The position numbers were made by a program, and so were the translations under genes. A stretch of DNA of 64,000 nt from Eubacteriales bacterium (GTDB lineage Bacteria; Bacillota; Clostridia; Oscillospirales; CAG-272), in assembly GCA_045633925.1 (NCBI GenBank), contig JAZQZG010000022.1:12171-76170 (forward strand). Direction: 5' to 3'. The notes under the pieces were generated by a model. It was not told where the DNA came from, made no database searches, and saw only the letters and a list, made by a program, of their open reading frames with translations. Of the stretch, positions 12,112-37,900 are shown in pieces. Every line of letters begins with the position of its first letter. The stretch's first letter is position 1.

Positions 12112-12489
12112 TTACTTAATCTCAACAGTTGCGCCAGCCTCTTCGAGCTGCTTCTTGAGAGCCTCAGCCTCATCCTTGGAAACGCCTTCCTTAACGGTCT
12201 TAGGAGCGCCATCAACCATGTCCTTAGCGTCCTTAAGTCCGAGTCCGAGAGCTTCCTTAACAACCTTAACAACGTTGAGCTTCTTGTCTCCGCCGGAAAC
12301 GAGAACAACGTCAAACTCGGTCTTCTCCTCAGCTGCTGCTGCGGGAGCTGCGCCTGCTGCAACTACGCCTACGGGAGCTGCTGCGGATACGCCAAATTCA
12401 TCTTCAACTGCCTTTACGAGGTCAGCGAGTTCAATAATAGTAAGAGACTTGATCTCTTCAAGAATGTTTGTGATCTTTTCAGATGCCAT
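12112..12489 (-). CDS. rplL: 50S ribosomal protein L7/L12
   Basis: 125 aa. [35 protein letters not shown]...Ala-rich hinge...[16 protein letters not shown]. Confidence 0.95.
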
Positions 12490-12580
12490 TTTTCTATTCC
12501 TCCTTAAATGGATGTAATTAAATTTTTTTGCGCTTTTGCGCGATTATATGCCACACTGTGTGGCGGGGAATGAAGCAGAA

Positions 12581-13138
12581 TTATTCAGCTGCTGCTTCGG
12601 TTGCTGCTTCAGCTGCAGCGGGTGCTGCTTCCTCAGCGGAATCTGTACCGTTCTTGTCAACCACAGCCTGAATTGCGTAAGCAAAGCTGTAAAGGGGAGA
12701 CTTGATGCTTCCAAGAAGCTTAGCGATAAGAATTTCCTTAGAGGGAATGTCAGCAAGCTTTTCTACGGTTGCCTTATCTACAACCGCACCGTCAAGATAA
12801 CCTGCGAGAATCTGGAAAGACTCGATCTTTTCAGCATACTCTTTAAGAATCTTAGCGGGAGCAATAGCATCGTCGGTAGCAATGGCGATAGCAGTCATAC
12901 CGGAAAGGTACTGCTTCATCTCTCCCATGCCAACCTCTTCGCAAGCTCTGCCGGTCAAGGAATTCTTCATAACGGTGTACTTTACGCCTGCCTCACGAAG
13001 AGCCTTACGCATCTTTGTGTCAGCGTCAACCGTAATACCCTGGTAGTTTACAACAACACCTGCGGGTGAATTCTTCAACTGCTCGGCAAGGTCAGCCACG
13101 ATTGCCTGCTTTTGTGCGAGAATTGAATTGCTGGGCAC
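12581..13138 (-). CDS. rplJ: 50S ribosomal protein L10
   Basis: 185 aa. Typical L10 N-terminus (KQAIVADLAEQLKNSPAGVVVNYQGITV) and position immediately upstream of rplL. Confidence 0.9.
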   Translation of the reverse strand: MPSNSILAQKQAIVADLAEQLKNSPAGVVVNYQGITVDADTKMRKALREAGVKYTVMKNSLTGRACEEVGMGEMKQYLSGMTAIAIATDDAIAPAKILKEYAEKIESFQILAGYLDGAVVDKATVEKLADIPSKEILIAKLLGSIKSPLYSFAYAIQAVVDKNGTDSAEEAAPAAAEAATEAAAE

Positions 13139-13305
13139 GTTAATTTACCTCCTATTTGAAAATGAGCAGGTATAAAAAAATAATCTTTTTTTCGCTCGAG
13201 CACAGACTGCCGCAAGGAAAAAAAGATTATGAGAAATATACACAATCAAAATCTCCTCGGCAGGAAAGCCTATGCTTTTACTAAAACCTGCTGTCTTTGG
13301 ATAAC
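13139..13305 (-). promoter_or_regulatory. candidate L10 (rplJ) leader / autoregulatory 5' UTR
   Basis: About 165 nt lie between a good promoter and the rplJ start. The region contains an AT-rich hairpin, ATAATCTTTTTTT...AAAAAAAGATTAT, followed by a T-run. The assignment rests on position and analogy only. Confidence 0.35.
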
Positions 13306-13311
13306 GGGTAT

Positions 13312-13339
13312 ATTATACCACAAAAGAATTATTTGTCAA
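13312..13339 (-). promoter_or_regulatory. sigmaA-like promoter for rplJ-rplL
   Basis: On the reverse strand: TTGACA (13339-13334), 16-nt spacer, extended -10 TGGTATAAT (TATAAT at 13317-13312). Confidence 0.5.
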
Positions 13340-25556: not shown

Positions 25557-28500
25557 ATGAAAAGATTGATTTCGATTCTGGTTGTATTTGCTATGATGCT
25601 CGCATTGGTGGCAACCTCCATTCCCGCGTTCGCTACCGAAGGCGAAGGCGGAGGTGAGGCAGCAGCAACACCTTTGGCTACATACAAAGTCAACTGGAAA
25701 GAGTTGGTTGATGGAGGCACGATGAAGTCCCAGTGGGTTTACGATAGAAGTGCCTCACAGAACAACTTTGCGTCAAAGTATAACATTTTCGCAACAGAAA
25801 CAGACCTTACTTTGACAGAAAATGGTGGAGAAAACCGTTCGTATTATTCTCAGGTAATGTTCGCGATTACCAATGAGACTAATTACGTTTACGAGCTCGA
25901 GGTAAATACCGCAGGCTATTATGACGGCGGTGTTGTATTCGCTTGGGCGGAAGATGCAAACGCATATACACAGCCTAACGGTAGCCGCGGACCTGTTATG
26001 GGCGAGGGCGATACAAACAATAATCCCAAGGCTCCTTACTTCATTCAGGGTGGTATTTCCAAGGGCGAAGCTGTAAAGGTTCACTTCGGTGGTCCTTACC
26101 AGGCTAATGGCGAAGACTATACCGTGTTTGGTACTGGTTCCAAGACTAACATGGATGGCATCAAGGTTAGTGAAGACGGTTACGTAAAGCTTAAGATCGT
26201 TTACACTGGTCTTACCGTTGAGATGTTCTACCTCAACGAGAACGATGAGTACGTAGAGTTCTTTGCTGACAAGACTATGACTCTTGCAGAGGGCTCAAAG
26301 GTTGCATTTGGTATAACCACATGGAACCCTGACTGGGCTAACATTAGAAACTGCACACTTTACGCAATGAACGATGCAGCTAAGGATTACATGACTCTTG
26401 ACAAGGCTCCTCTTGCATCTGTTATTGACGCTGCAAAGAAACTTGCAGAGGTTGATTACACTCCCGATTCTTGGGCAGTATTCTATCCTGCAGCTATTAA
26501 TGCGGCAGAGGAAGCTTACAAGACCGTTGCTAACCAGGCTGAAGTAAATGCTGCTATTGCGGCACTTCAGACAGCTATCGATGCACTTGTTGACTCCCCT
26601 GATTCTGATAAGACAGCTCTTAACGCAGCAATCACTGCAGCTAAGGCTCTCAATCCTGCAGATTATAAAGCATATTTCCAGACCAAGCTCGTAGCTGCTA
26701 TCGCTGCAGCTGAGGCTATCTATGCAGGTGAAGCTATCAATGAGAACGAAGAGAATAATGCTATCGCAGCTCTCACCGCTGCTGTTGATAGTCTTGTTGC
26801 TGCAGACGTAGAGGATGTTTACTACAATGTAAACTGGAAGAAGCTCTATGACGATAAGACCATGAGAGCTCAGTGGCTCTATGAGAGACAGCCCGGTCAG
26901 AATAACTTTGAGAATTTCTACAAGGTTAAAGCAGACGAGACCTCTATCTCTTTTGATAGAATAAACGGAGATACTCGTTTGTACTACTCCGAGATCATGC
27001 CCGATCTCAGTGCAGATACCTACTATGAGTATGTATTTGAAGTAAACATGACCAATGTTCAGAACCTTGGTGGTGTTATGTTTGCATTCGCAGAGAACCC
27101 CGATGGAACCGTTGATGGCGATACCATCAAGGATACCGAAGGCGTTGTTGGACGCATTCCTGTATCCGGATACTACCTCAAGGGTGGTCTTAGCTCCGGT
27201 TCTGCAGTATCCGTTCACTTCGGTGGTCACTACGACGGATATGACGTAGGCGACGCTGTAAATGCTTCTTTGGCAGATATTAAGAGAAGCGAAGATGGAT
27301 ACGCTACTTATAAGGTTATATTCGATGGACTTCTTGCTAAGTTCTACTATCTTAAGGACAATGGCGATGACACTGCTGAGTTTGTAGAGTTCTTCGCTGA
27401 TAAGACTGTAGCTCTTGCAGAGGCTTCAAGAATTGCCTTCGGTGTTTACAATAAGGATACCGATTACCCCGCTCTCAGAAACTGTGTACTTACTGCCGGT
27501 AATGAGGCAGCACAGGTAGCTCTTGAGAGAGTTTACCTCGATTACCACATCATGTTGGCTGGAAGATTCGAGAATAAGACCGGTTACACTACCGATACTT
27601 TTGCTGCATTGACTGCTGCTTTGGCAGATGCAAGAGCAGCAACCGATCCTGCAACTTATGATGCATTGATCGAGACTCTTGACGCAGCTAGACTTGGACT
27701 TAAGAAGGCTGCAAACAAGACCGCTCTTAAGGCTGCTATCGATGCTGCAAAGGCAAAGGTTGGTGAGAATACTGAGGACGCTTTCACTGCCGCAACTTGG
27801 GCAAAACTTGATGAAGCTCTCACTGCTGCAGAAGCAGTATATGCAAATGGCAATCTTGATAATTCCGCAGAGGATCAGAAGATTGTTGATGATGCAACCG
27901 CAGCTCTTAAGGCTGCAACCGAGCGTCTTACCGAAGCAGGCAAGGCTAACTTGGTAGATTTCAATGCAGCTATCAAGGCTTATGAGGCTCTTGTTGAGAC
28001 CGACTATACTCCTGCTTCTTGGGCTGCTGCAATGGCAAATAAGGTTGCTTATTATGAAGCAAAGATTCTTGAGACCAAGGAACTTACCGAGGCTGATCAG
28101 GCTGACATCGATGCAGCTACTGAGGCTTTGAACGCAATTCTTAACGCACTCGTTAAGCGCGCAGATTTCACCAAGCTCCAGTCTCTCGTTAACAGAGTAG
28201 ATGCTCTTGATAAATCTTTCTACACTCCCGAGACCTTGATCGCTGAAGAGTTGATCACTACAGCTAAGGAAGTTCTTGCTAACCTTGATGCAACTCAGAC
28301 CGCTGTTGATGAAGCTCTCGCAGCTCTCCAGGCAGCTTATGATGCACTTAAGCCCATCAGAACTAACGTATTGCTTATTACTGTTCCTGATGATTACGTA
28401 ATCAACGATCAGGTAAGCTATCCTCCCGAAAAAGCTACTGAGTACAACAAGATTACCGATATGAGCTACCATGGCTTGGGTAACGTATTCTACTACGACT

Positions 28501-30179
28501 ACCACAAGGTAATTGCTAATACAACCTTCACTGCAGGTTGGAAGGCTGAATGGAAGCCCGGTGATGCGTTTGAGCAGTCTTTGAAGGCAGCAAACTTGCA
28601 CGGTGATTCTTCCTACGTATTGCGTCTTGGTAGAAATAACGGAGAAGGTACCAACAGAGCGGTTAACGGAATTAAGGTTGGGGATGATGCTAACCTTGTT
28701 CACCAGTCTCGTCCTACTCTCATAGGAGATAAGAAGTATGGTCACGTATTTGGATTCAGCTTCCGCGAGGCTCCTACGTTCGACTCTGTTGCAGTTTATC
28801 TTCCTACCGATAGCGTTATTGCTTCCATAGATGTATACGGCGCAAATCTCGCAGTAGATGCTGAAGGAAATGCTATTTACGGTAAGGCTGATTCGGATAA
28901 GATAATTAATCTTGACGCTAACGGCAAGGAACTTAGAGATGAGACTCCTTTAACCGCTGAGAAGGTTTACCTCGGAACCATTGAAGTTCCTGCAGCTGAG
29001 GAAGGTGCAAAGAACATTCTTGCAGAGGGCAAGCTTATGGCGTTCGAGGCAGAGTACGTATACTTTGCTCTTACCTTTAAGGATGGAACTGCCGATAACG
29101 CTTGGTATTCAATTTATGAGATTGAACTCTACGGATTCAACGCGGGTGATGAGAACTTGAAGGCTGACTTCTCCGCTCTCAACGCACTCTTTGCAGATAT
29201 CGATGATCTTAACCAGGTAGACTACACTCCCTTGTCTTGGAAGACTCTTACTGATGCAATTGCTGAACATGAAGCAACTATAATGTCTGCACTTTCCACT
29301 AAGGAAGCTGTAGATGCAGCAGTAGCTGCTATCGATGCAGCTTACAAGGCTTTGGAATATAATAAGGCTGACTTTACCGCGCTTGACGAGATGCTCGCTG
29401 TTGCTGAGCTCTTCGAGGGCAGCGATGACAGCTTCACTCCCGGATCTTTCAAGGCTCTTACTGATGCTATAGCACTTGCAAAAGAGCTTAAGGAACTCGG
29501 TAAGGTTCCCCAGTCTTTGGTAGATGCAGCAACTGAGGCACTCTTCGTAGCTATTTCTGCTCTTGATGAAGTAGCTGATAAGTCCGCTCTCGCGGAAATT
29601 GTTGCTAAGGCTGACACCTACAAAGAGGCAGAGTGGCAGGGTAACGGAATTGCTTGGAGCATGTTTGCGGATGCTCTCAACGAGGCAAAGGCAATTCTCG
29701 CTAACGTAGACGCAGTTCAGGACGAGATCGATGCAGCTGTTAAGTCTCTCGAGTCTAAGATCGCTGAGCTTAAGCCTACTCCCGGCGTAACTCCCGGCCA
29801 GCCCGGCGACAATGATCAGCCCGGCGACAACGATCAGCCCGGCGACACTGATAAGCCCGACGATACTGATAAGCCCGGCGACACTGATAAGCCCGAAGAC
29901 ACCGACAAGCCCGAAGACACCGACAAGCCCGGTGAGTCCGAGACTGATCCTGTTGAGCCCGAGGATACCGATCCTGTTGAGCCCGGCGAGTCTGATACCG
30001 ATCCTGTTGAGTCTGAGACCGAGCCTGTTGAGTCTGATACCGAGACTGCTACTTCTACCACCGCTGCTGCTACCGATGCAGCAGATGAAGGCGGATGCGG
30101 ATCTAGCATCGCTCTCTCCGCTCTCGCAGTAGTTGGCGTAATCGGAACCGCAGTTATTCTCAAGAAGAAAGAGGACTAA
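25557..30179 (+). CDS. large secreted cell-surface protein: 2x unassigned beta-sandwich-like domain, many FIVAR-like helical repeats, discoidin/CBM-like domain, Pro/Asp-rich stalk, C-terminal hydrophobic anchor
   Basis: 1540 aa. Signal peptide with AFA-TE cleavage context. Repeated D/YTPxSW...A helical modules. C-terminus PGDNDQ/PGDTDK repeats then GGCGSSIALSALAVVGVIGTAVILKKKED. RBS AAAGGAG. Confidence 0.8.
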   Translation: MKRLISILVVFAMMLALVATSIPAFATEGEGGGEAAATPLATYKVNWKELVDGGTMKSQWVYDRSASQNNFASKYNIFATETDLTLTENGGENRSYYSQVMFAITNETNYVYELEVNTAGYYDGGVVFAWAEDANAYTQPNGSRGPVMGEGDTNNNPKAPYFIQGGISKGEAVKVHFGGPYQANGEDYTVFGTGSKTNMDGIKVSEDGYVKLKIVYTGLTVEMFYLNENDEYVEFFADKTMTLAEGSKVAFGITTWNPDWANIRNCTLYAMNDAAKDYMTLDKAPLASVIDAAKKLAEVDYTPDSWAVFYPAAINAAEEAYKTVANQAEVNAAIAALQTAIDALVDSPDSDKTALNAAITAAKALNPADYKAYFQTKLVAAIAAAEAIYAGEAINENEENNAIAALTAAVDSLVAADVEDVYYNVNWKKLYDDKTMRAQWLYERQPGQNNFENFYKVKADETSISFDRINGDTRLYYSEIMPDLSADTYYEYVFEVNMTNVQNLGGVMFAFAENPDGTVDGDTIKDTEGVVGRIPVSGYYLKGGLSSGSAVSVHFGGHYDGYDVGDAVNASLADIKRSEDGYATYKVIFDGLLAKFYYLKDNGDDTAEFVEFFADKTVALAEASRIAFGVYNKDTDYPALRNCVLTAGNEAAQVALERVYLDYHIMLAGRFENKTGYTTDTFAALTAALADARAATDPATYDALIETLDAARLGLKKAANKTALKAAIDAAKAKVGENTEDAFTAATWAKLDEALTAAEAVYANGNLDNSAEDQKIVDDATAALKAATERLTEAGKANLVDFNAAIKAYEALVETDYTPASWAAAMANKVAYYEAKILETKELTEADQADIDAATEALNAILNALVKRADFTKLQSLVNRVDALDKSFYTPETLIAEELITTAKEVLANLDATQTAVDEALAALQAAYDALKPIRTNVLLITVPDDYVINDQVSYPPEKATEYNKITDMSYHGLGNVFYYDYHKVIANTTFTAGWKAEWKPGDAFEQSLKAANLHGDSSYVLRLGRNNGEGTNRAVNGIKVGDDANLVHQSRPTLIGDKKYGHVFGFSFREAPTFDSVAVYLPTDSVIASIDVYGANLAVDAEGNAIYGKADSDKIINLDANGKELRDETPLTAEKVYLGTIEVPAAEEGAKNILAEGKLMAFEAEYVYFALTFKDGTADNAWYSIYEIELYGFNAGDENLKADFSALNALFADIDDLNQVDYTPLSWKTLTDAIAEHEATIMSALSTKEAVDAAVAAIDAAYKALEYNKADFTALDEMLAVAELFEGSDDSFTPGSFKALTDAIALAKELKELGKVPQSLVDAATEALFVAISALDEVADKSALAEIVAKADTYKEAEWQGNGIAWSMFADALNEAKAILANVDAVQDEIDAAVKSLESKIAELKPTPGVTPGQPGDNDQPGDNDQPGDTDKPDDTDKPGDTDKPEDTDKPEDTDKPGESETDPVEPEDTDPVEPGESDTDPVESETEPVESDTETATSTTAAATDAADEGGCGSSIALSALAVVGVIGTAVILKKKED
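29802..29927 (+). repeat. 7 x 18-nt in-frame tandem repeat (PGDNDQ / PGDTDK / PEDTDK)
   Basis: Units of the form CCCGGCGACAATGATCAG are directly visible. A looser DPVEP/ESxTxPVES periodicity follows, to about 30050. Confidence 0.85.
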
Positions 30180-31513: not shown

Positions 31514-32158
31514 TTAAATATCAAACGCTCTCATCGCATCTGCAAGACCGCCTACCGAGTCGATAATTCCGTAGCTTACCGCCTCCTCGCCGTCTATTAT
31601 GCTTCCGATGTCGGTTGCAAGCTCGTCGGGGCGCATCATAAGGTCGATTATCTCGTCCTCGGAGGCTCTTGAGTGTGAGCAGATGAATTTTACTATACGC
31701 TTTTGCATCTCCTCAAAATATTTGAAGGTTTGCGGCGCACCGAGCACGAGCCCGTTTATTCTCACGGGGTGGAGAGTCATCGTTGCCGAGGGCACGATGA
31801 AGGATTTTTTTGCTGCCGTGGCAAGCGGAACGCCTATCGAATGTCCGCCGCCGAGAACGAGCGAGACCGTGGGCTTTTTCATCGATGCGATAAGCTCTGC
31901 GATAGCAAGTCCCGCCTCAACGTCGCCACCCATAGTGTTCAAAATTATCAGAAGACCGCGTATTTTTTCGTCCTCCTCGACAGAGATAAGCTCGGGGATG
32001 ATGTGCTCGTATTTTGTGGCTTTTTGCCCCTCCTGCAAAAGGTAGTGGCCCTCGATCTGCCCGATTATCGACATACAGTGTATCTTGCCTGCGCGAGTTT
32101 GCGCAGTGGTTGCTCCGTCTTTTGCATCGACGTGAGCTTTTTTCTTTGCTTGCTTCAT
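31514..32158 (-). CDS. tepA: ClpP-family serine protease, TepA (translocation-enhancing protein)-like
   Basis: 214 aa. SIIGQIEGH...KYEHIIP.L...EED..I.GLLIILNTMGGDVEAGLAIAELI...HSIGVPLA matches the TepA/YmfB-type ClpP homologs. Confidence 0.7.
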   Translation of the reverse strand: MKQAKKKAHVDAKDGATTAQTRAGKIHCMSIIGQIEGHYLLQEGQKATKYEHIIPELISVEEDEKIRGLLIILNTMGGDVEAGLAIAELIASMKKPTVSLVLGGGHSIGVPLATAAKKSFIVPSATMTLHPVRINGLVLGAPQTFKYFEEMQKRIVKFICSHSRASEDEIIDLMMRPDELATDIGSIIDGEEAVSYGIIDSVGGLADAMRAFDI

Positions 32159-32233: not shown

Positions 32234-32262
32234 TTTACAATTGCAAAAAAGTGTGCTATAAT
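32234..32262 (+). promoter_or_regulatory. sigmaA-like promoter of the pduL operon
   Basis: TTTACA (32234-32239), 17-nt spacer, TATAAT (32257-32262). Confidence 0.5.
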
Positions 32263-32297
32263 AAACTGAATGACTTTTAAATGAAAGGATGCTTATT

Positions 32298-32867
32298 ATG
32301 GCAAAAAAAATTTTAGTTGAAACCTCCGCAAGACACGTTCACGTAACTGCTGAGGCTGTTGAGATCCTTTTTGGAAAAGGATACAAATTGACAAACAAGA
32401 AGGACTTGAGCCAGCCCGGTCAGTTCGCTTGTGAGGAGAAGGTTACCGTTATCGGCCCTAAGGGTTCTTTGAAGGCAAGCATTCTCGGCCCCGAGAGACC
32501 TGCAAATCAGGTTGAGCTTTCCTTGACCGATGCTCGTGCGATAGGCGTTGTTGCTCCTATCCGTGAGTCCGGCGACGTTGCTGCAAGCGGAGCTTGCACC
32601 ATTCAGGGTCCCTGCGGATCTGTTGAGGTTGAGTGCGGTGTTATCGCAGCTAAGCGTCATATACATATGACTCCTGAGGATGCTGCGGAGCTTGGCGTTT
32701 CCGATAAGGAAATCGTATCCGTTAAGGTTGACACCCCCCGTTCTCTTGTTTTCGGTGACGTAGTAGTTAGAGTTAGCGACAAGTTCGCGCTTGCTATGCA
32801 CATCGATACCGATGAATCTAACGCCGCTTGTGCCTTTGGTGAGGTATACGGCGAGATAGTAAAATGA
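32298..32867 (+). CDS. pduL: phosphate propanoyltransferase / phosphotransacylase PduL
   Basis: 189 aa. Duplicated PduL signature: VETSARHVHV near the N-terminus and KRHIHMTPEDA in the second half. I chose the ATG at 32298 (MAKKILVE). Confidence 0.85.
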   Translation: MAKKILVETSARHVHVTAEAVEILFGKGYKLTNKKDLSQPGQFACEEKVTVIGPKGSLKASILGPERPANQVELSLTDARAIGVVAPIRESGDVAASGACTIQGPCGSVEVECGVIAAKRHIHMTPEDAAELGVSDKEIVSVKVDTPRSLVFGDVVVRVSDKFALAMHIDTDESNAACAFGEVYGEIVK

Positions 32868-32892
32868 AAATAAATTAAAAGGAGATAAAAAA

Positions 32893-33609
32893 ATGGGCAT
32901 TGAAAACACTTGCGAGTACGCAATGAGCCGTGAGGTTCAGGAAATGTGTACCGTTGCAAAGGGACCCAAGCATGGTCCTGCTCCCATTCCCGAAGAGGGC
33001 AAATGGGTAGAAGCTAAACAGATAAGCGATATTTCCGCTTACACTCACGGTGTGGGTTGGTGTGCACCCCAGCAGGGCGCGTGCAAGCTTTCCCTCAACG
33101 TAAAGAACGGTATTATTGAGGAAGCTTTGGTTGAGACCATCGGTTGCTCGGGTATGACTCACTCTGCTGCTATGGCTGCAGAAATTCTTCCCGGTAAGAC
33201 TCTTCTTGAGGCTCTTAACACCGACCTCGTATGCGATGCTATTAACACCGCTATGAGAGAGCTCTTCCTTCAGATCGTTTACGGTCGTAGCCAGTCTGCA
33301 TTCTCTGAGAACGGACTTGTTATCGGCGCAGGTATGGAGGACCTCGGTAAGGGTGAGCGTTCCATGGTTGGTACTATGTACGGTACTAAGGCAAAGGGCG
33401 TAAGATACCTTGAGATGACTGAGGGCTACTGCACAAGAATGGCTCTTGACGCAGACAATCAGGTTATAGGTTACGAATTCGTATCTCTCGGCAAGATGAC
33501 AGACTTCATCAAGAAGGGCATGGAGCCTAACGAAGCATACGAGAAGTCCAAAGGCACCTACGGAAGATTCAATGATGCTGTAAAGTACATTGACCCCCGT
33601 AAAGAATAA
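32893..33609 (+). CDS. NifU/IscU-N-terminal-like Fe-S scaffold-type protein with C-terminal extension of about 110 aa
   Basis: 238 aa. GVGWCAPQQGACKLSL...ETIGCSGMTHSAAMAAEILPGKTLLEA mirrors the IscU Cys/GC..A.S...E...GK layout. RBS AAAGGAG. Confidence 0.6.
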   Translation: MGIENTCEYAMSREVQEMCTVAKGPKHGPAPIPEEGKWVEAKQISDISAYTHGVGWCAPQQGACKLSLNVKNGIIEEALVETIGCSGMTHSAAMAAEILPGKTLLEALNTDLVCDAINTAMRELFLQIVYGRSQSAFSENGLVIGAGMEDLGKGERSMVGTMYGTKAKGVRYLEMTEGYCTRMALDADNQVIGYEFVSLGKMTDFIKKGMEPNEAYEKSKGTYGRFNDAVKYIDPRKE

Positions 33610-33627
33610 TAAGGAGGTATATGTATA

Positions 33628-34626
33628 ATGGCTAAATTTGAAGGTTACGAGAGAAGAGAAGCGAAGATTCTCGCTGCTCTTAATGAATATGGAATCAACT
33701 CTATCGACGAGTGCAAGGATATTTGTGATGCTTACGGCATCGATCCTTACAAGATCGTTGAGGAGACTCAGCCTATCTGCTTTGAGAATGCAAAGTGGGC
33801 TTATACCGTTGGCGCGGCAATCGCTATAAAGAAGGGTTGCAAGAAGGCTTCCGAGGCAGCAGCTGCTATCGGTATCGGACTTCAGTCCTTCTGTATCCCC
33901 GGCTCAGTTGCTGAAAACCGTAAGGTTGGTCTTGGCCACGGTAATCTTGGCGCAATGCTTCTCTCTGAGGAGACCGAGTGCTTCTGCTTCTTGGCAGGTC
34001 ACGAGTCCTTCGCAGCAGCAGAGGGCGCTATTAAGATCGCTCTTAACGCAAACAAGGTTAGAACAAAGCCTCTCCGCGTTATCTTGAACGGTCTCGGAAA
34101 GGATGCAGCGTTCATCATTTCCAGAATCAACGGCTTTACATACGTTGAGACTAAGTTTGATCCTTACACCGAGCAGGTTGCAGTTCTCTCCGAGAAGGCA
34201 TTCTCCAACGGTCCCAGAGCAGACGTTAAGTGCTACGGCTCTGACAGCGTTCCCGAGGGTGTTGCAATCATGCGCCTTGAGAACGTAGGTGTATCTATCA
34301 CCGGTAACTCCACTAACCCCACAAGATTCCAGCACCCCGTTGCAGGAACCTACAAGAAGTGGTGTAACGAGAACGGTGTTAAGTACTTCTCCGTTGCATC
34401 GGGCGGTGGTACAGGTCGTACTCTCCATCCCGATAACATGGCTGCAGGTCCCGCTTCCTACGGTATGACCGATACGATGGGTAGAATGCACGGCGACGCT
34501 CAGTTCGCAGGTTCTTCCTCCGTTCCCGCTCACGTAGAGATGATGGGTCTCATCGGAGCAGGTAACAACCCCATGGTTGGTATGACTGTTGCTGTTGCTG
34601 TTGCTATAGAGGAAGCTGCTAAGTAA
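33628..34626 (+). CDS. GGGtGRT family protein (function unknown)
   Basis: 332 aa. The eponymous motif SGGGTGRTLHPDN is encoded at 34399-34437 (GGGTGRT at 34402-34422). RBS AAGGAGG. 18 nt after the preceding gene. Confidence 0.75.
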   Translation: MAKFEGYERREAKILAALNEYGINSIDECKDICDAYGIDPYKIVEETQPICFENAKWAYTVGAAIAIKKGCKKASEAAAAIGIGLQSFCIPGSVAENRKVGLGHGNLGAMLLSEETECFCFLAGHESFAAAEGAIKIALNANKVRTKPLRVILNGLGKDAAFIISRINGFTYVETKFDPYTEQVAVLSEKAFSNGPRADVKCYGSDSVPEGVAIMRLENVGVSITGNSTNPTRFQHPVAGTYKKWCNENGVKYFSVASGGGTGRTLHPDNMAAGPASYGMTDTMGRMHGDAQFAGSSSVPAHVEMMGLIGAGNNPMVGMTVAVAVAIEEAAK

Positions 34627-34669
34627 TTGACTTTTTTCAGCTTTAACTTGTAAATTCAACTAAATAAAA

Positions 34670-34720
34670 ATTGGACACATCACAAACGTATTTTCGTTCG
34701 TGATGTGTCCAATATTTTTT
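34670..34720 (+). terminator. rho-independent terminator of the pduL operon
   Basis: 19-bp stem ATTGGACACATCACAAACG / CGTTCGTGATGTGTCCAAT followed by a T-run. Confidence 0.8.
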
Positions 34721-34907: not shown

Positions 34908-37900
34908 ATGAAAAAAATAATTTCTATTCTTATCGTAGCTGTGTTATTGCTTTCGAGCATAGTCACTATTATTCCCGCAAGCGCAGCCAAGGCATCCTAT
35001 ACACCGGATTGGCTGGATCTTAAGAACAGAACCAAGTATATAGCTTACTATCCTAATGGAAGCGCATATACACTTACTGATTTTTGGACTAAGTATAGTG
35101 TTACAAGAGAGACTAATCTTTTGTCTCCTAAAACAAAAGCAGACGGCGCACCCGCATGCTCCTATATTTCCACTATTCAGTTTGCTATAAATTCAAATAC
35201 AAAATATGAGTATAAGGTTAAGGTAAAATCGAATTCCGTTAACAATTTTGGCGGAGTTGTTTTTGCTATAAGCCCTGATAACGTAACGTATCATGTATAC
35301 GGTGGATTTAACAACAGCAATCACATAAGCACACAATGGCCGAAGCAATCTCACGTTATTACGGTACATGGAGATTATAGTGCAAGAGATCCTTACGTAG
35401 GTGACGAATATATTAACGATGCAAAGTATTTTGAAGAGCTTAAGCTTGACGGTGAAGGCTTTGCCTCGCTCAAGATCGTTTATGAAGGATTGAAGGTTAC
35501 CGTTTATGCACAGAATTCAGCAGGTGAATTTGTTCAAATGGGTCAAACCGTAACGCTTGTGAGCGGTTCAAAGCTTGCTTTTGGTGTGTTTAACCGTAAC
35601 GGAAGCTCAAAGGTTGATCGTACTGTGTCACTTAAGGATGCTAAAATATACGCCTTGAATGACGCGGCAATAAAGGCTATGACGGCATCGGGTGAGGCTG
35701 TGGTTAATGAAACCGAGGCTGAAGTCGAAACAACAAAGCCTGAAACAAAGCCCGAAACCGAAACCGAAACAGAAACAGAAACAGAAACCGAAGCTACTCC
35801 GGATGAGCCGCTTTCGGTATTCGACCAGGAAATGGCGGCAAATAAAGCGCAAAACGATGAACTTTTGTCGGTGCTTCTTCCTAAATCCAATGCTCTTCGT
35901 CAAGAAATTAAATCAAACAAACCGGGATACAGCTTTGGTAAGGCAAGCAGCAGCATAGGTACCAAGAAATCATCGTGGACGGCTAAAACGCCGACTCCCA
36001 CAGGCGATCACCCCAGACTTTTGATTACAGAGGATACTATTCCGACCATTAAAAAAGCGTTGGAAAACAAAAATGATCCTACGGTTCAGCGCTTTTACGA
36101 GTTGCTCAACACTCAACACGCTAAAAATGGTCAGCTCAAGGCAGCGACCGAAAACTTCGGCGGAAGAAACGGTCTTCACAACTATGACAAGGAGCTTCTC
36201 GAGCTTATTCAGATCAAAGCGCTTGCATATGTAGTAGGAGGACACGAGCTTTACGGATATCAAGCTATTCACTATATGAAGCAATTTTTGAGAACTCTTG
36301 ATATTCAATACATTAATACCAATATGGAGCGTGAATATGGAAACACTATGTTCACAGCAGCTCTCGTATATGACTGGTGTTACGATCTTTTGACAGAAGA
36401 GGATAAGAAACAGTTTATCGCAGGTGTTGAAAACAAAACCGCAAAGGGTACCTGCGGAGATCCATCCTACACTTCAACCGAGCATTATAAGTGGAAAATG
36501 TCTGTAGGATTTCCTCCCACCAAGATCGGTGCAGTATCGGGACACGCATCTGAGCGTCAGATACTTCGTGATTATCTTTCGGTGGCGGTTGCGTTCTACG
36601 GAGACAATAATTCTTGGTGGAATTATATCGCCGCATGTGTTTATTCCGAATACGTACCCGTTAGAAATTATTATTTCAAATCGGGACTTTCACAGCAGGG
36701 TACGGGTGTTTACGTTTCGGGAAGACATATATCGGATATGTACTCCGCATGGATACTTATGACCGCGACAGGATCTCAGCCCTATACTGATATAAACAAA
36801 ACGGTCAGAAACTTCTTGGGATATGAGGTCGCTCCCGGAAAGATATTCTCCGATGGAGACGGAACGGGTTCAATCCAAAACAACTACGAATTCAGAGCGC
36901 TTTCTTATATGACAGCATATCTTTTTGCTGACGAGCCGATGCTCGCACAAGCAAAATCCATGCAACCTACAAAAGCATTTGGGGCTGATACGATCGAGCT
37001 TACCTCTGCTATGTATATAGCGCTTTGCGGTATGTCGGATATAGAGCCTGCTGAGGATAAATACGAGGGAATGCCTCTTATTCAATACAATGGTTCTCCC
37101 GTGGGTCAGTATGTAACACACGAGGCGTTTGGTGTGAAGGATTCTGCAACTGTCCTCATGAGAGTTAAGGAAAGAAGCACGGCAAATCACGAGCACGCAG
37201 ATGCAGGAACCTTTATGATATATTATAAGGGAATGCTTACGGCTGACGGCGGTGTTTATAAGGGATACGGATCTGATCACACAAGATACTATCACCAAGC
37301 AACGGTATCTCACAACGGATTGCTCATATACAATCCGAACGTACCGGAAGCAAATGATTCTTCTCTTAGCGCAACAACAAAATCCAAGATGAAAAAATGG
37401 TACTCCGGCGGTCAGATTTGGCCGAGCGAAGCATCGAATTTGACACAGCTGAAGTCGGATAAGTATTTAACGGGTAACGTAATAGGTAATAGACACGGAT
37501 ATCTTGATGCAGACAAGACGAAGCCGTTATACGCTTACATTAATGGAAATATAACGAATGCTTATCATCAGGATACCGTTGACCACGTTGGAAGAAGAAT
37601 GCTCACGGTCTATACTCAAAATGAAGACGTTCCAGTGGTATTCTTCGTTTATGACGCTATAACGTCAGACAGTGCAAATTATAAAAAGACGTTCTTGCTT
37701 CATATTCCTTCATCCTCGGCACCTACAATAAACAAAACGAACAAAACTGTAACAACCGAAAATGGTGATGGACGTCTTGTTCTCACCTGCCTCACAAACG
37801 CTGCAAAGATCACGGGAGTAGGCGGTAAAAATAACAATTACTCCACAAACGGAAAGCAGAATACAGTTGCTTATGAGACCGGAGCGTGGGGACGCGTTGA

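What the first reader, a model, noticed from the sequence alone, without database searches (positions are those of the whole stretch)
32234..34720. Compact pduL / NifU-like / GGGtGRT operon: two uncharacterised proteins wired to an acyl-phosphate-forming enzyme
Seen in the sequence: three same-strand genes (32298-32867, 32893-33609, 33628-34626) are separated by only 25 and 18 nt. Each has a strong RBS. They are bracketed by a TTTACA-17-TATAAT promoter and a 19-bp-stem terminator, so they form one transcription unit. Established knowledge: gene 1 is a clear PduL phosphotransacylase (acyl-CoA + Pi to acyl-phosphate). Gene 3 carries the SGGGTGRTLHPDN signature of the GGGtGRT family, for which I know of no assigned function. 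Gene 2 has the IscU/NifU-N Cys layout plus an extra extension of about 110 aa. Inference: the pair could form an Fe-S-dependent enzyme or maturation module. Its product would be an acyl-thioester that PduL drains toward substrate-level phosphorylation. This is the best candidate in the window for an undescribed functional module.
Basis: partly seen in the sequence, partly recalled or inferred. Interest (0 to 1): 0.75.

Follow-up and report, generated by a model that had tools for sequence, protein, structure and literature searches.

The report
PduL operon with NifU-like/GGGtGRT pair
The window holds a three-gene operon that joins an ordinary phosphotransacylase (PduL) to a very conserved, probably very highly expressed two-protein iron-sulfur module (NifU-like plus GGGtGRT) that occurs in gut and rumen anaerobes across phyla and has no published function.

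Summary
Three same-strand genes lie 25 and 18 nt apart, behind an 11/12 extended -10 promoter and before a -27 kcal/mol terminator. Gene 1 is a genuine PduL with no encapsulation peptide. Gene 3 is a full-length GGGtGRT protein (PF14057, 636 bits). Gene 2 has an IscU fold but fails every IscU/NifU cut-off. Its cluster site is rebuilt around four invariant Cys, and it carries a C-terminal extension of about 108 aa.

The NifU-like and GGGtGRT genes are adjacent in 78 of 78 informative loci from Clostridia, Erysipelotrichia, Bacteroidales, Treponema and Kiritimatiellae; an archaeal locus shows the same pairing. Both proteins stay 70-97% identical across these groups. Their codon bias matches ribosomal proteins. 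GGGtGRT has no relative among solved structures.

PduL linkage is real but occurs in a minority: 11 of 80 species loci, all Oscillospirales-like Clostridia, in three gene orders. A divergent paralogous pair always sits with phosphoglycerate-mutase-type genes.

My best reading is an obligate, abundant heteromeric Fe-S enzyme that acts on small phosphorylated or acyl-phosphate metabolites. PduL would be a lineage-specific partner. I found no published biochemical function.

The parts
32234..32262 (+). Sigma-70-type promoter TTTACA-17-TATAAT with a TG extended -10
   Evidence: 11 of 12 matches, the best site in the region. Sequence read. Function is inferred, not shown.
32298..32867 (+). g1: PduL-type phosphotransacylase, 189 aa, without an encapsulation peptide. 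Probably the cytosolic, housekeeping type.
   Evidence: PF06130 at 5e-78 over the full domain. NCBIfam PRK15070 scores 249.5 bits against a cut-off of 209. The BMC EutD model scores 253 against a cut-off of 315. The best solved structure is 5cuo at 1e-42, residues 5-181, with both RHxH motifs aligned. The domain starts at residue 5-7. No BMC-H shell hit in the window.
32893..33609 (+). g2: IscU-fold protein, 238 aa. It has a remodelled site with four invariant Cys (C57, C64, C85, C114), an N-terminal extension of about 45 aa and a C-terminal extension of about 108 aa. It is the universal partner of GGGtGRT.
   Evidence: NifU_N scores 21.0 bits, below the 22-bit gathering score. It is far below the NifU, IscU and SufU equivalog cut-offs. 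Foldseek gives IscU/ISCU at probability 1.0 over about 100 columns. Invariant Cys come from the 19-sequence alignment of both branches. It lies directly upstream of g3 in 78 of 78 loci.
33628..34626 (+). g3: GGGtGRT protein, 332 aa. It has an N-terminal helical domain and a Rossmann-like alpha/beta part with glycine-rich loops: AGHES 123-127, ITGNST 224-229 and ASGGGTGRTLHPDN 257-270.
   Evidence: PF14057 at 636 bits, positions 1-327 of 327. The AlphaFold2 model has pLDDT 84.5 and pTM 0.88. No solved-structure relative by fold or by sequence or profile.
34670..34713 (+). Intrinsic terminator hairpin followed by a U-run. The tool also scores it on the - strand, so it may be bidirectional.
   Evidence: 19 pairs counted.: -27.2 kcal/mol, z = -7.4.
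31514..32158 (-). Divergently transcribed ClpP/NfeD-like protease gene. It is a syntenic neighbour of pduL in this clade and is not part of the operon.
   Evidence: PF00574 at 1.5e-22. It is far below the ClpP equivalog cut-offs. It sits next to pduL in 10 related loci and in strain-level contigs.

Best explanation
The locus is one transcription unit that combines two things.

(1) g1 is a cytosolic PduL phosphotransacylase, not a microcompartment one. It interconverts acyl-CoA + Pi and acyl-phosphate + CoA.

(2) g2 and g3 form a self-contained, universally paired module. I read it as an obligate 1:1 heteromeric Fe-S protein made at very high levels.
- The IscU-derived subunit has lost the features of a transient assembly scaffold. 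It most likely holds a permanent cluster on four invariant cysteines.
- The GGGtGRT subunit has a fold with no solved relative. It contributes a Rossmann-like cleft lined with invariant Gly-rich loops and invariant His, Arg, Lys, Ser and Thr. This is the signature of a site that binds a phosphate-bearing ligand.

I infer that the pair is an enzyme of central fermentative metabolism in strict anaerobes, and that it works on a small phosphorylated or acyl-phosphate-type metabolite. In this Oscillospirales lineage it has been placed in an operon with PduL, the enzyme that makes or consumes acyl-phosphate. In a divergent paralogous branch it is placed with phosphoglycerate mutases.

Shown: the anatomy, the protein identities, the universal pairing, the extreme conservation, the codon bias and the context statistics. 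Inferred: the complex, the cluster, ligand binding, the substrate class and the coupling to PduL.
For: Anatomy and identities.

Pairing:
- A g2 homologue lies directly upstream of g3 in 78 of 78 loci that have upstream sequence. The gap is usually about 12-25 nt.
- In the divergent branch the two genes overlap by 8-11 nt.
- No other neighbour recurs in more than 12 of 82 loci.

Constraint:
- g3 is 76-93% identical across Clostridia, Bacteroidales, Treponema and Kiritimatiellae.
- In a library clustered at 50% identity, the only full-length representatives among the 150 best hits were P0243, P0276 and the frameshifted-looking P0371. The rest were fragments or longer chimeras.
- In the same genomes, PduL is only 61-80% identical while g3 is 75-97% and g2 72-94%.

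Expression:
- g3 has Nc 35.2 and g2 37.7, the lowest of 37 long ORFs. They equal rplJ (35.3) and rplL (33.4).
- Metaproteomes list both proteins among commonly or highly expressed proteins (PMC11204068, PMC7035244).

Iron link:
- B. thetaiotaomicron BT0173-74 falls 11- to 12.8-fold under iron limitation (PMC10434189).
- The C. pasteurianum GGGtGRT protein appears, at up to 7.1-fold, in the proteomic comparison of iron conditions (PMC5395762).

Remodelled IscU site:
- C57, C64, C85 and C114 are invariant in both branches.
- Canonical Cys37 is replaced by Gln and Asp39 is lost.
- Cys106 = C114, His105 to Val and the absence of LPPVK are my reading of the alignment.

Possible complex: invariant but unmodelled segments may order only in the complex. 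These are g2 131-177 and the g3 segments 261-268 and 270-277, all with pLDDT below 50.

Phosphate theme:
- The only Foldseek matches are nucleotide-binding Rossmann domains, at probability 0.9-0.97 over about 145-150 columns.
- PduL is the top third neighbour and occurs in three gene orders.
- The divergent pair is always flanked by ApgM (517 bits against a cut-off of 489) and His_Phos_1. Once it also has GpmI (656 bits against a cut-off of 331).
- Transposon insertions in BT0173-4 derepress Cur/Roc on glucose, as pfkA insertions do, but only 2-fold (bioRxiv 10.64898/2026.04.10.717545).
Against: - There is no direct evidence for a complex, a cluster or any activity. A multimer prediction could not be run.
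- The g2 model is poor (pLDDT 62).
- In the 88-sequence alignment only one Cys of GGGtGRT (C202) is invariant, and one representative (P0243) has Val there. All cluster ligands would therefore have to come from g2.
- A Cys4 site leaves no open iron for Lewis-acid catalysis.
- PduL is present in only 11 of 80 species loci, or 5 of 43 with at least 3 kb on both sides. All of these are Oscillospirales-like. The linkage could be co-regulation of two highly expressed genes.
- In relatives, lipase genes separate pduL from the pair.
- The phosphoglycerate-mutase context concerns a paralogue that is 46-55% identical, not this protein.
- B. thetaiotaomicron insertion mutants grow normally on glucose, so the function is not essential for glycolysis there.
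- Extreme conservation is also typical of Fe-S biogenesis hubs such as IscU (my own knowledge).
Confidence: 0.45

Rival explanations
1. The pair is a dedicated Fe-S (or iron/sulfur) biogenesis, repair or storage system. In this reading g2 is a specialised scaffold or carrier and GGGtGRT is its partner (donor, chaperone or acceptor). PduL is only a neighbour.
For: - g2 has the IscU fold.
- Sources annotate it as a NifU or scaffold protein.
- Expression follows iron supply.
- Extreme conservation resembles IscU itself (my own knowledge).
- The pair stands alone in variable contexts, as housekeeping factors do.
Against: - The features of a transient scaffold are missing: Cys37, Asp39, His105 and LPPVK. 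The site has four invariant Cys instead.
- No cysteine desulfurase, chaperone or ferredoxin gene is a recurrent neighbour in 82 loci.
- Scores lie far below the NifU_clost, IscU and SufU equivalog cut-offs.
- Codon bias at ribosomal-protein level and prominence in metaproteomes fit a stoichiometric enzyme better than an assembly factor.
- This reading does not explain the PduL and phosphoglycerate-mutase contexts.
Confidence: 0.2
2. The pair is an Fe-S-dependent enzyme, or its maturase, whose product is an acyl-thioester (acyl-CoA). PduL converts that product to acyl-phosphate for substrate-level phosphorylation.
For: - All three genes sit in one operon here.
- PduL is the most frequent third neighbour and occurs in three gene orders, including nifU-like, GGGtGRT, pduL in L073 and L079.
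- None of the 12 pduL-linked loci shows a recurrent acetate-kinase-sized neighbour.
Against: - PduL is missing from the neighbourhood in about 86% of species loci and in all non-Oscillospirales lineages.
- No CoA-binding or thioester-forming signature was found. Pfam, NCBIfam and PDB searches are empty for g3.
- The paralogue's context is phosphoglycerate mutases, which have no thioester chemistry.
- PduL is reversible, so even the direction of flow is open.
Confidence: 0.1
3. The pduL adjacency has no metabolic meaning and reflects shared strong promoter use or synteny drift. The pair itself is an abundant redox, stress-protection or sensing protein of anaerobes (for example electron transfer, oxygen or iron sensing) and is not a metabolic enzyme.
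For: - A Cys4 site suits electron transfer or sensing.
- The pair occurs only in anaerobe genomes in this sample.
- One archaeal locus has rubredoxin next door.
- It is listed beside rubrerythrins among commonly expressed proteins (PMC11204068).
- It is dispensable for growth on glucose.
- The context is otherwise random.
- In L001, L005, L006, L038, L047 and L053, inserted sequence of about 0.65-1.3 kb separates pduL from the pair. It encodes GDSL lipases where it was read.
Against: - About 40 invariant polar residues and three Gly-rich loops in a 332-aa protein look like an elaborate active site.
- pduL is kept next to the pair despite a change of order.
- A conserved five-gene cluster with phosphomutases exists for the paralogue, in loci of five distinct branch members.
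- A pfkA-like regulatory phenotype is seen in B. thetaiotaomicron.
Confidence: 0.2

Closest known systems
Pfam PF14057 'GGGtGRT protein' with its adjacent 'NifU' gene, for example B. thetaiotaomicron BT0173-BT0174
   Same: g3 is a full-length member at 636 bits. The partner gene and gene order are the same as in every other locus. The literature names the BT0173-74 pair, shows that it responds to iron, and reports a mild Cur/Roc phenotype.
   Different: Here, and in 10 other species loci, the pair shares a locus with pduL. None of the papers I read mentions this. The family has no assigned function, so membership explains nothing mechanistically.
IscU / NifU N-terminal domain / SufU Fe-S assembly scaffolds (PF01592, TIGR01999, TIGR03419, TIGR01994)
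   Same: The three-strand plus helices core fold is shared (Foldseek probability 1.0). Canonical Cys63 (GC-S/G motif) and Cys106 are retained as C85 and C114.
   Different: - Scores are below every family cut-off.
- Cys37 is replaced by Gln, Asp39 is lost, His105 is replaced by Val and LPPVK is absent.
- There are two new invariant Cys (C57, C64).
- An N-terminal extension of about 45 aa and a C-terminal extension of about 108 aa are added.
- It is never next to a cysteine desulfurase.
PduL/EutD phosphotransacylase of bacterial microcompartments (structure 5CUO), and PduL used as housekeeping phosphotransacetylase
   Same: g1 aligns over the whole catalytic domain with rPduL (1e-42) and keeps both RHxH motifs. 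It passes the PRK15070 cut-off.
   Different: It has no N-terminal encapsulation peptide. No shell-protein gene was found in the 64-kb window. It falls below the BMC EutD cut-off. Its operon partners are not Pdu or Eut enzymes and not an acetate or propionate kinase.
Two-subunit Fe-S enzymes that act on small acids, such as alpha/beta L-serine dehydratase or class I fumarate/tartrate dehydratases (analogy only, from my own knowledge)
   Same: These also pair a small subunit of about 200-240 aa with a larger one of about 300-330 aa. They are oxygen-sensitive, iron-dependent, abundant in anaerobes and encoded by adjacent genes.
   Different: No sequence or fold similarity was detected. In those enzymes the cluster has three Cys and an open iron. 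Here four Cys are invariant, and they sit on an IscU fold.

Membership tests
GGGtGRT protein family (PF14057) | Full-length match to the family model above the gathering score | tested here: met
   636.3 bits against a cut-off of 27. Residues 4-330 cover model positions 1-327 of 327.
GGGtGRT protein family (PF14057) | Eponymous GGGtGRT motif | tested here: met
   ASGGGTGRTLHPDN at residues 257-270. G259-T265 are invariant in 88 sequences.
GGGtGRT protein family (PF14057) | A NifU-like gene immediately upstream. This is an empirical hallmark found here, not part of the Pfam definition. | tested here: met
   78 of 78 loci with upstream sequence. In the window the gap is 18 nt.
IscU / NifU_N / SufU Fe-S scaffold | Score above the curated family cut-offs | tested here: not met
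   PF01592 scores 21.0 against 22. TIGR03419 scores 25.7 against 187.9. TIGR01999 scores 21.1 against 192.4. TIGR01994 scores 17.9 against 92.5.
IscU / NifU_N / SufU Fe-S scaffold | IscU core fold | tested here: met
   Foldseek gives ISCU/IscU/SufU at probability 1.0 and target TM about 0.5 over 95-107 columns. The query model has low confidence (pLDDT 62).
IscU / NifU_N / SufU Fe-S scaffold | Three canonical cluster cysteines (E. coli Cys37, Cys63, Cys106) | tested here: not met
   Cys63 corresponds to C85. Cys106 corresponds to C114, by my motif reading of the alignment. Cys37 aligns with Gln. New invariant Cys lie at -4 and +4 (C57, C64).
IscU / NifU_N / SufU Fe-S scaffold | Labile-ligand Asp39, His105 and the LPPVK chaperone-binding motif | tested here: not met
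   Asp39 falls in a gap or at Ala. Position 113 is Val. There is no LPPVK, because the segment between NTD and the last Cys is deleted (the motif positions come from my own knowledge of E. coli IscU).
IscU / NifU_N / SufU Fe-S scaffold | Genomic association with a cysteine desulfurase or other assembly genes | tested here: not met
   No such gene family recurs among neighbours within 5-6 genes in 82 loci.
PduL phosphotransacylase (PF06130 / PRK15070) | Full PTAC domain above the cut-offs | tested here: met
   PF06130 scores 261 bits over positions 2-174 of 176. PRK15070 scores 249.5 against 209.
PduL phosphotransacylase (PF06130 / PRK15070) | Conserved His motifs of the dimetal active site | tested here: met
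   SARHVHV and AKRHIHM align with SNRHIHL and AQRHIHM of 5cuo. The metal-ligand role of these motifs is from my own knowledge of the rPduL structure.
Microcompartment-associated PduL/EutD | N-terminal encapsulation peptide and shell-protein genes nearby | tested here: not met
   The catalytic domain starts at residue 5-7, both here and in all 12 linked homologues. The BMC_EutD_Gpos model scores 253 against 315. tblastn with PduA, recalled from memory, finds nothing in the window.
Heteromeric Fe-S enzyme (the proposed kind) | Physical complex of g2 and g3 with a bound Fe-S cluster | not testable with these tools
The only indirect signs are invariant segments that stay unmodelled in the single chains and the tight gene coupling.

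The most novel reading that the evidence does not exclude
NifU-like/GGGtGRT could be a previously unrecognised class of Fe-S-containing enzyme of anaerobic central metabolism that uses acyl-phosphates (acetyl- or propionyl-phosphate from PduL; 1,3-bisphosphoglycerate upstream of the phosphoglycerate mutases). It might, for example, be an acyl-phosphate phosphotransferase that forms ATP or pyrophosphate, or an acyl-phosphate reductase. That would be a new substrate-level-phosphorylation or redox step carried by a protein fold with no solved relative. It would tie together the two independent gene contexts and the pfkA-like phenotype in B. thetaiotaomicron.
Probability: 0.1. Interest if true: 0.9.

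Novelty: new variant of a known kind. Interest (0 to 1): 0.62.

Why it matters
GGGtGRT and its NifU-like partner are among the most conserved proteins of gut and rumen anaerobes, at about 75% identity between phyla. They appear to be among the most highly expressed. They are still annotated only by a sequence motif. This work adds four things:
- The two genes form an invariant pair.
- The IscU-like partner is not a scaffold by any defining feature.
- GGGtGRT has no solved structural relative.
- The only recurrent genomic partners are enzymes of acyl-phosphate and phosphoglycerate chemistry.

Together these turn a "conserved hypothetical" into a short list of substrates and assays that can be tested. 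If the pair is an enzyme, a high-flux reaction of anaerobic fermentation is missing from current metabolic maps and from models of the gut microbiome.

Tried and rejected
1. **Remote homology for g3.** I ran Pfam, NCBIfam and PADLOC scans, phmmer and a profile search against PDB sequences, and Foldseek against the PDB. Nothing was significant. The many CODH and helicase rows have TM scores of 0.3 or less and I rejected them.
2. **Rosetta-stone fusions.** All longer 'GGGtGRT' proteins are assembly chimeras or internal duplications. No genuine fusion exists.
3. **Conserved operator or riboswitch upstream of the pair.** A k-mer enrichment over 62 upstream regions gave only the ribosome-binding site and AT-rich words. 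Rfam found nothing near the operon.
4. **HMMER's pairing of C180 (YCTRMALDA) with IscU Cys106.** I rejected it because C180 is not conserved, whereas C114 is invariant.
5. **Microcompartment context.** I rejected it.
6. **Prediction of the complex.** This was not possible. The tool takes single chains and only window or search-derived sequences.
7. **The unknown 315-332-aa gene of the paralogous cluster.** It has no Pfam, NCBIfam or PDB match, and only a weak SLATT-like N-terminal hit.
8. **Literature searches for a function.** Searches on GGGtGRT, PF14057, BT0173/BT0174 and NifU-like with iron gave no biochemical study. The PF14057 hits were Plasmodium gene identifiers.
9. **A TPP-type GDG...NN motif and a PEP-utiliser phospho-His motif in g3.** I considered both by eye and dropped them, because the key residues are not conserved or the spacing is wrong.


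Full report
**Observation**

The gaps are 25 and 18 nt, and each ORF has a Shine-Dalgarno sequence. A TTTACA-17-TATAAT promoter with a TG extension lies at 32234-32262. It matches 11 of 12 positions and is the best site in the region. A hairpin at 34670-34713 followed by a U-run folds at -27.2 kcal/mol, z = -7.4, and none of 200 shuffles folds as well. No + strand terminator-like site interrupts the unit. A single transcript is therefore the natural reading, but it is an inference.

**Identities**

- **g1 is a genuine PduL.**
  - It matches PF06130 at 5e-78 and passes NCBIfam PRK15070 (249.5 bits against 209).
  - It aligns over the whole catalytic domain of the solved rPduL 5CUO (1e-42), including both RHxH motifs.
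  - The domain begins at residue 5-7, so there is no encapsulation peptide.
  - It fails the microcompartment EutD model (253 against 315), and no shell-protein gene was detectable in the window.
  - It looks like a cytosolic phosphotransacylase.
- **g3 is a full-length GGGtGRT protein.** It matches PF14057 at 636 bits over positions 1-327 of 327.
- **g2 only grazes NifU_N.**
  - It scores 21.0 bits against a gathering score of 22, and it is far below the NifU_clost, IscU and SufU cut-offs.

**The pair is universal and extraordinarily constrained**

The best 80 were kept.
- They come from Oscillospiraceae, Acutalibacteraceae, Christensenellaceae, Lachnospiraceae, Erysipelotrichia, Prevotella, Alistipes and other Bacteroidales, Treponema and Kiritimatiellae. 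In all of them g3 is 76-93% identical to the window protein.
- A look-up in a Methanobacteriaceae genome also showed an unannotated 230-aa gene directly upstream of GGGtGRT, as elsewhere.
- With two further contigs from an earlier look-up, this gave 82 loci. In all 78 that have any sequence upstream of g3, a g2 homologue lies directly upstream, usually 12-25 nt away.
- In a library clustered at 50% identity, only three of the 150 best hits are full-length. One of these looks frameshifted. The rest are fragments or longer chimeras.
- In the same genomes PduL is 61-80% identical, while g3 is 75-97% and g2 72-94%.
- Codon bias in the window points to very high expression. g3 has Nc 35.2 and g2 37.7, the two lowest of 37 long ORFs. 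They equal rplJ (35.3) and rplL (33.4).

**Context**

I clustered all neighbours within 5-6 genes over the 82 loci. Only PduL recurs (12 loci), plus a ClpP-like gene confined to the window's own clade (10 loci). Every other family occurs in 5 loci or fewer and is unrelated housekeeping or mobile DNA: integrases, ClpC/McsAB, topoisomerase, MreB and the like. No cysteine desulfurase or Fe-S assembly gene is associated.

PduL occurs in three arrangements:
- directly upstream, as in the window;
- upstream with inserted sequence of about 0.65-1.3 kb, which encodes one or two GDSL lipase genes where it was read;
- directly downstream of g3, in L073 and L079, where the flanks are unrelated.

Counted on the species scan, PduL lies within 3 kb in 11 of 80 loci, or 5 of 43 that have at least 3 kb on both sides. 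All of these are Oscillospirales-like Clostridia. The linkage is therefore real and has survived rearrangement, but it is not part of the core module.

**A second, independent context clue**

A divergent branch of GGGtGRT is 46-55% identical to g3. It has its own NifU-like partner, which is 50% identical to g2 and overlaps the GGGtGRT start. In the loci of all five branch members I looked up, it lies in a cluster of:
- ApgM-type phosphoglycerate mutase (517 bits against an equivalog cut-off of 489);
- the NifU-like gene and GGGtGRT;
- an unknown gene of 315-332 aa;
- a His_Phos_1 protein;
- in one locus also GpmI (656 bits against 331).

One of these clusters sits in the chromosome of a spore former, next to IleRS, Fur, YpeB and SpoIIR genes.

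**Structure**

- **g3.**
  - With an 88-sequence alignment, AlphaFold2 gives a confident model (pLDDT 84.5, pTM 0.88).
  - It has an N-terminal helical domain (7-112) and a Rossmann-like alpha/beta part.
  - The invariant loops AGHES, ITGNST and ASGGGTGRT follow beta-strand ends. The GGGtGRT loop itself (261-268, 270-277) is not modelled confidently.
  - Foldseek finds no PDB entry at E < 1e-3. The only consistent partial matches are nucleotide-binding Rossmann domains. A profile search of PDB sequences finds nothing.
  - Across both branches g3 has about 40 invariant polar residues, including five His and five Arg. It has only one invariant Cys, C202, and one representative has Val there.
- **g2.**
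  - It models poorly (pLDDT 62). Its core still matches IscU/ISCU/SufU with Foldseek probability 1.0.
  - Alignment of 19 partners from both branches shows four invariant cysteines: C57, C64, C85 and C114.
  - Against IscU, C85 corresponds to Cys63 and C114 to Cys106. Canonical Cys37 is Gln, Asp39 is lost, His105 is Val and LPPVK is deleted. The IscU numbering comes from my own knowledge.
  - The invariant segment 131-177 is unmodelled.

**Literature**

Within the held library the family is described only as "poorly characterised". It is commonly or highly expressed in chicken-caecum and rumen metaproteomes (PMC11204068, PMC7035244). B. thetaiotaomicron BT0173-74 is repressed 11- to 12.8-fold under iron limitation (PMC10434189). 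The C. pasteurianum protein appears, at up to 7.1-fold, in the proteomic comparison of iron conditions (PMC5395762). In B. thetaiotaomicron, transposon insertions in BT0173-4 came out of a screen, together with pfkA and an M16 peptidase, for loss of glucose repression of Cur/Roc. The effect was 2-fold, and growth on glucose was normal (bioRxiv 10.64898/2026.04.10.717545). I found no biochemical function.

**Interpretation**

The evidence fits an obligate, stoichiometric, abundant heteromer. An IscU-derived subunit carries a permanent Cys4 Fe-S cluster. GGGtGRT supplies a phosphate or nucleotide-type binding cleft. The two independent genomic partners, PduL (acyl-phosphate) and phosphoglycerate mutases, place the likely substrate class among small phosphorylated acids or acyl-phosphates. 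The glucose-signalling phenotype in B. thetaiotaomicron points the same way. I put this at about 0.45.

Rivals:
- An Fe-S biogenesis, repair or storage role (0.2). The missing scaffold features, the absence of assembly-gene neighbours and the expression level weaken it.
- A non-metabolic redox or sensing protein, with pduL adjacency being incidental (0.2).

The substrate, the cluster type and the existence of the complex are all unproven.

**Comparison with known systems, and novelty**

g3 is a member of PF14057, and the pair is the same as BT0173-74, so the kind is catalogued. It is uncharacterised, and g3 has no solved structural relative. g2 has the IscU fold but fails the family's defining features, so it should not be called a NifU or IscU scaffold. 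g1 is an ordinary PduL of the non-microcompartment type. None of the papers I read describes the pduL-containing operon, so I rate the locus as a new variant of a known but functionally blank kind. Interest is moderate to high (0.62). It is not a new discovery of the family. It is a well-defined, testable entry point into what may be a missing high-flux reaction of anaerobic metabolism.

Noticed in passing
L083:5997-10606, L086:2572-8580, L088:391-6859, L090:301-5405, L092:5006-9548: A divergent NifU-like/GGGtGRT pair, 46-55% identical to g3, always lies in a cluster with an ApgM phosphoglycerate mutase, an unknown 315-332-aa protein and a His_Phos_1 protein. L088 also has GpmI. The unknown protein has no Pfam, NCBIfam or PDB match.
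   Followed up: partly
L003:3440-4387, L004:1369-2352, L007:11119-12102, L012:8350-9825, L036:10062-11363, L065:3382-4887, L075:9438-10736, L095:4557-5498: Tyrosine recombinase or integrase genes lie 1-3 genes downstream of GGGtGRT in about 10 loci. The near-identical 3' end of this gene may serve as an attachment site for integrative elements. The window itself has no integrase there.
   Followed up: no
proteins P0001-P0004, P0012, P0071, P0241, P0253, P0275, P0304, P0333, P0337: Many metagenome-derived 'GGGtGRT' proteins are artefacts. Some have internal duplications. Others are truncated GGGtGRT joined to truncated ABC transporter, Tex, SusD, GMP synthase or IMPDH. This is probably cross-species misassembly at a gene that is nearly identical between taxa.
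   Followed up: partly
window 31514-32158 (-): A divergently transcribed ClpP/NfeD-like protease gene sits here. It is far below the ClpP equivalog cut-offs. It is syntenic with pduL in 10 related species and in strain-level contigs, while the outer flanks vary.
   Followed up: partly
L001:5969-7234; also L006, L047, L053: In close relatives one or two GDSL lipase genes are inserted between pduL and the NifU-like gene. The pduL-to-pair junction therefore tolerates insertions.
   Followed up: partly
window 25557-30179 (+) and 34908-38303 (+): Two very large secreted proteins (1540 and 1131 aa) flank the region. Both have signal peptides, acidic or Pro-rich repeats and similar N-terminal modules. 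The second has a heparinase II/III-like domain.
   Followed up: no
window 13169-13318 (-), 12112-13138 (-): An L10 leader (RF00557, 49.2 bits) lies upstream of rplJ and rplL. I used these genes as the codon-bias reference.
   Followed up: partly
phage collection hits H1-H6 (MT835590.1, MT837192.1 and others): Six unannotated 'Bacteriophage sp.' contigs from human faeces encode GGGtGRT homologues (49-78% identical to P0403; two nearly full length). They could be viral carriage or misclassified bacterial contigs.
   Followed up: no
L094:4048-6138: A Methanobacteriaceae genome carries GGGtGRT with an unannotated 230-aa gene directly upstream, next to a rubredoxin gene and archaeal-type DNA ligase. 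The module therefore also occurs in gut methanogens.
   Followed up: no
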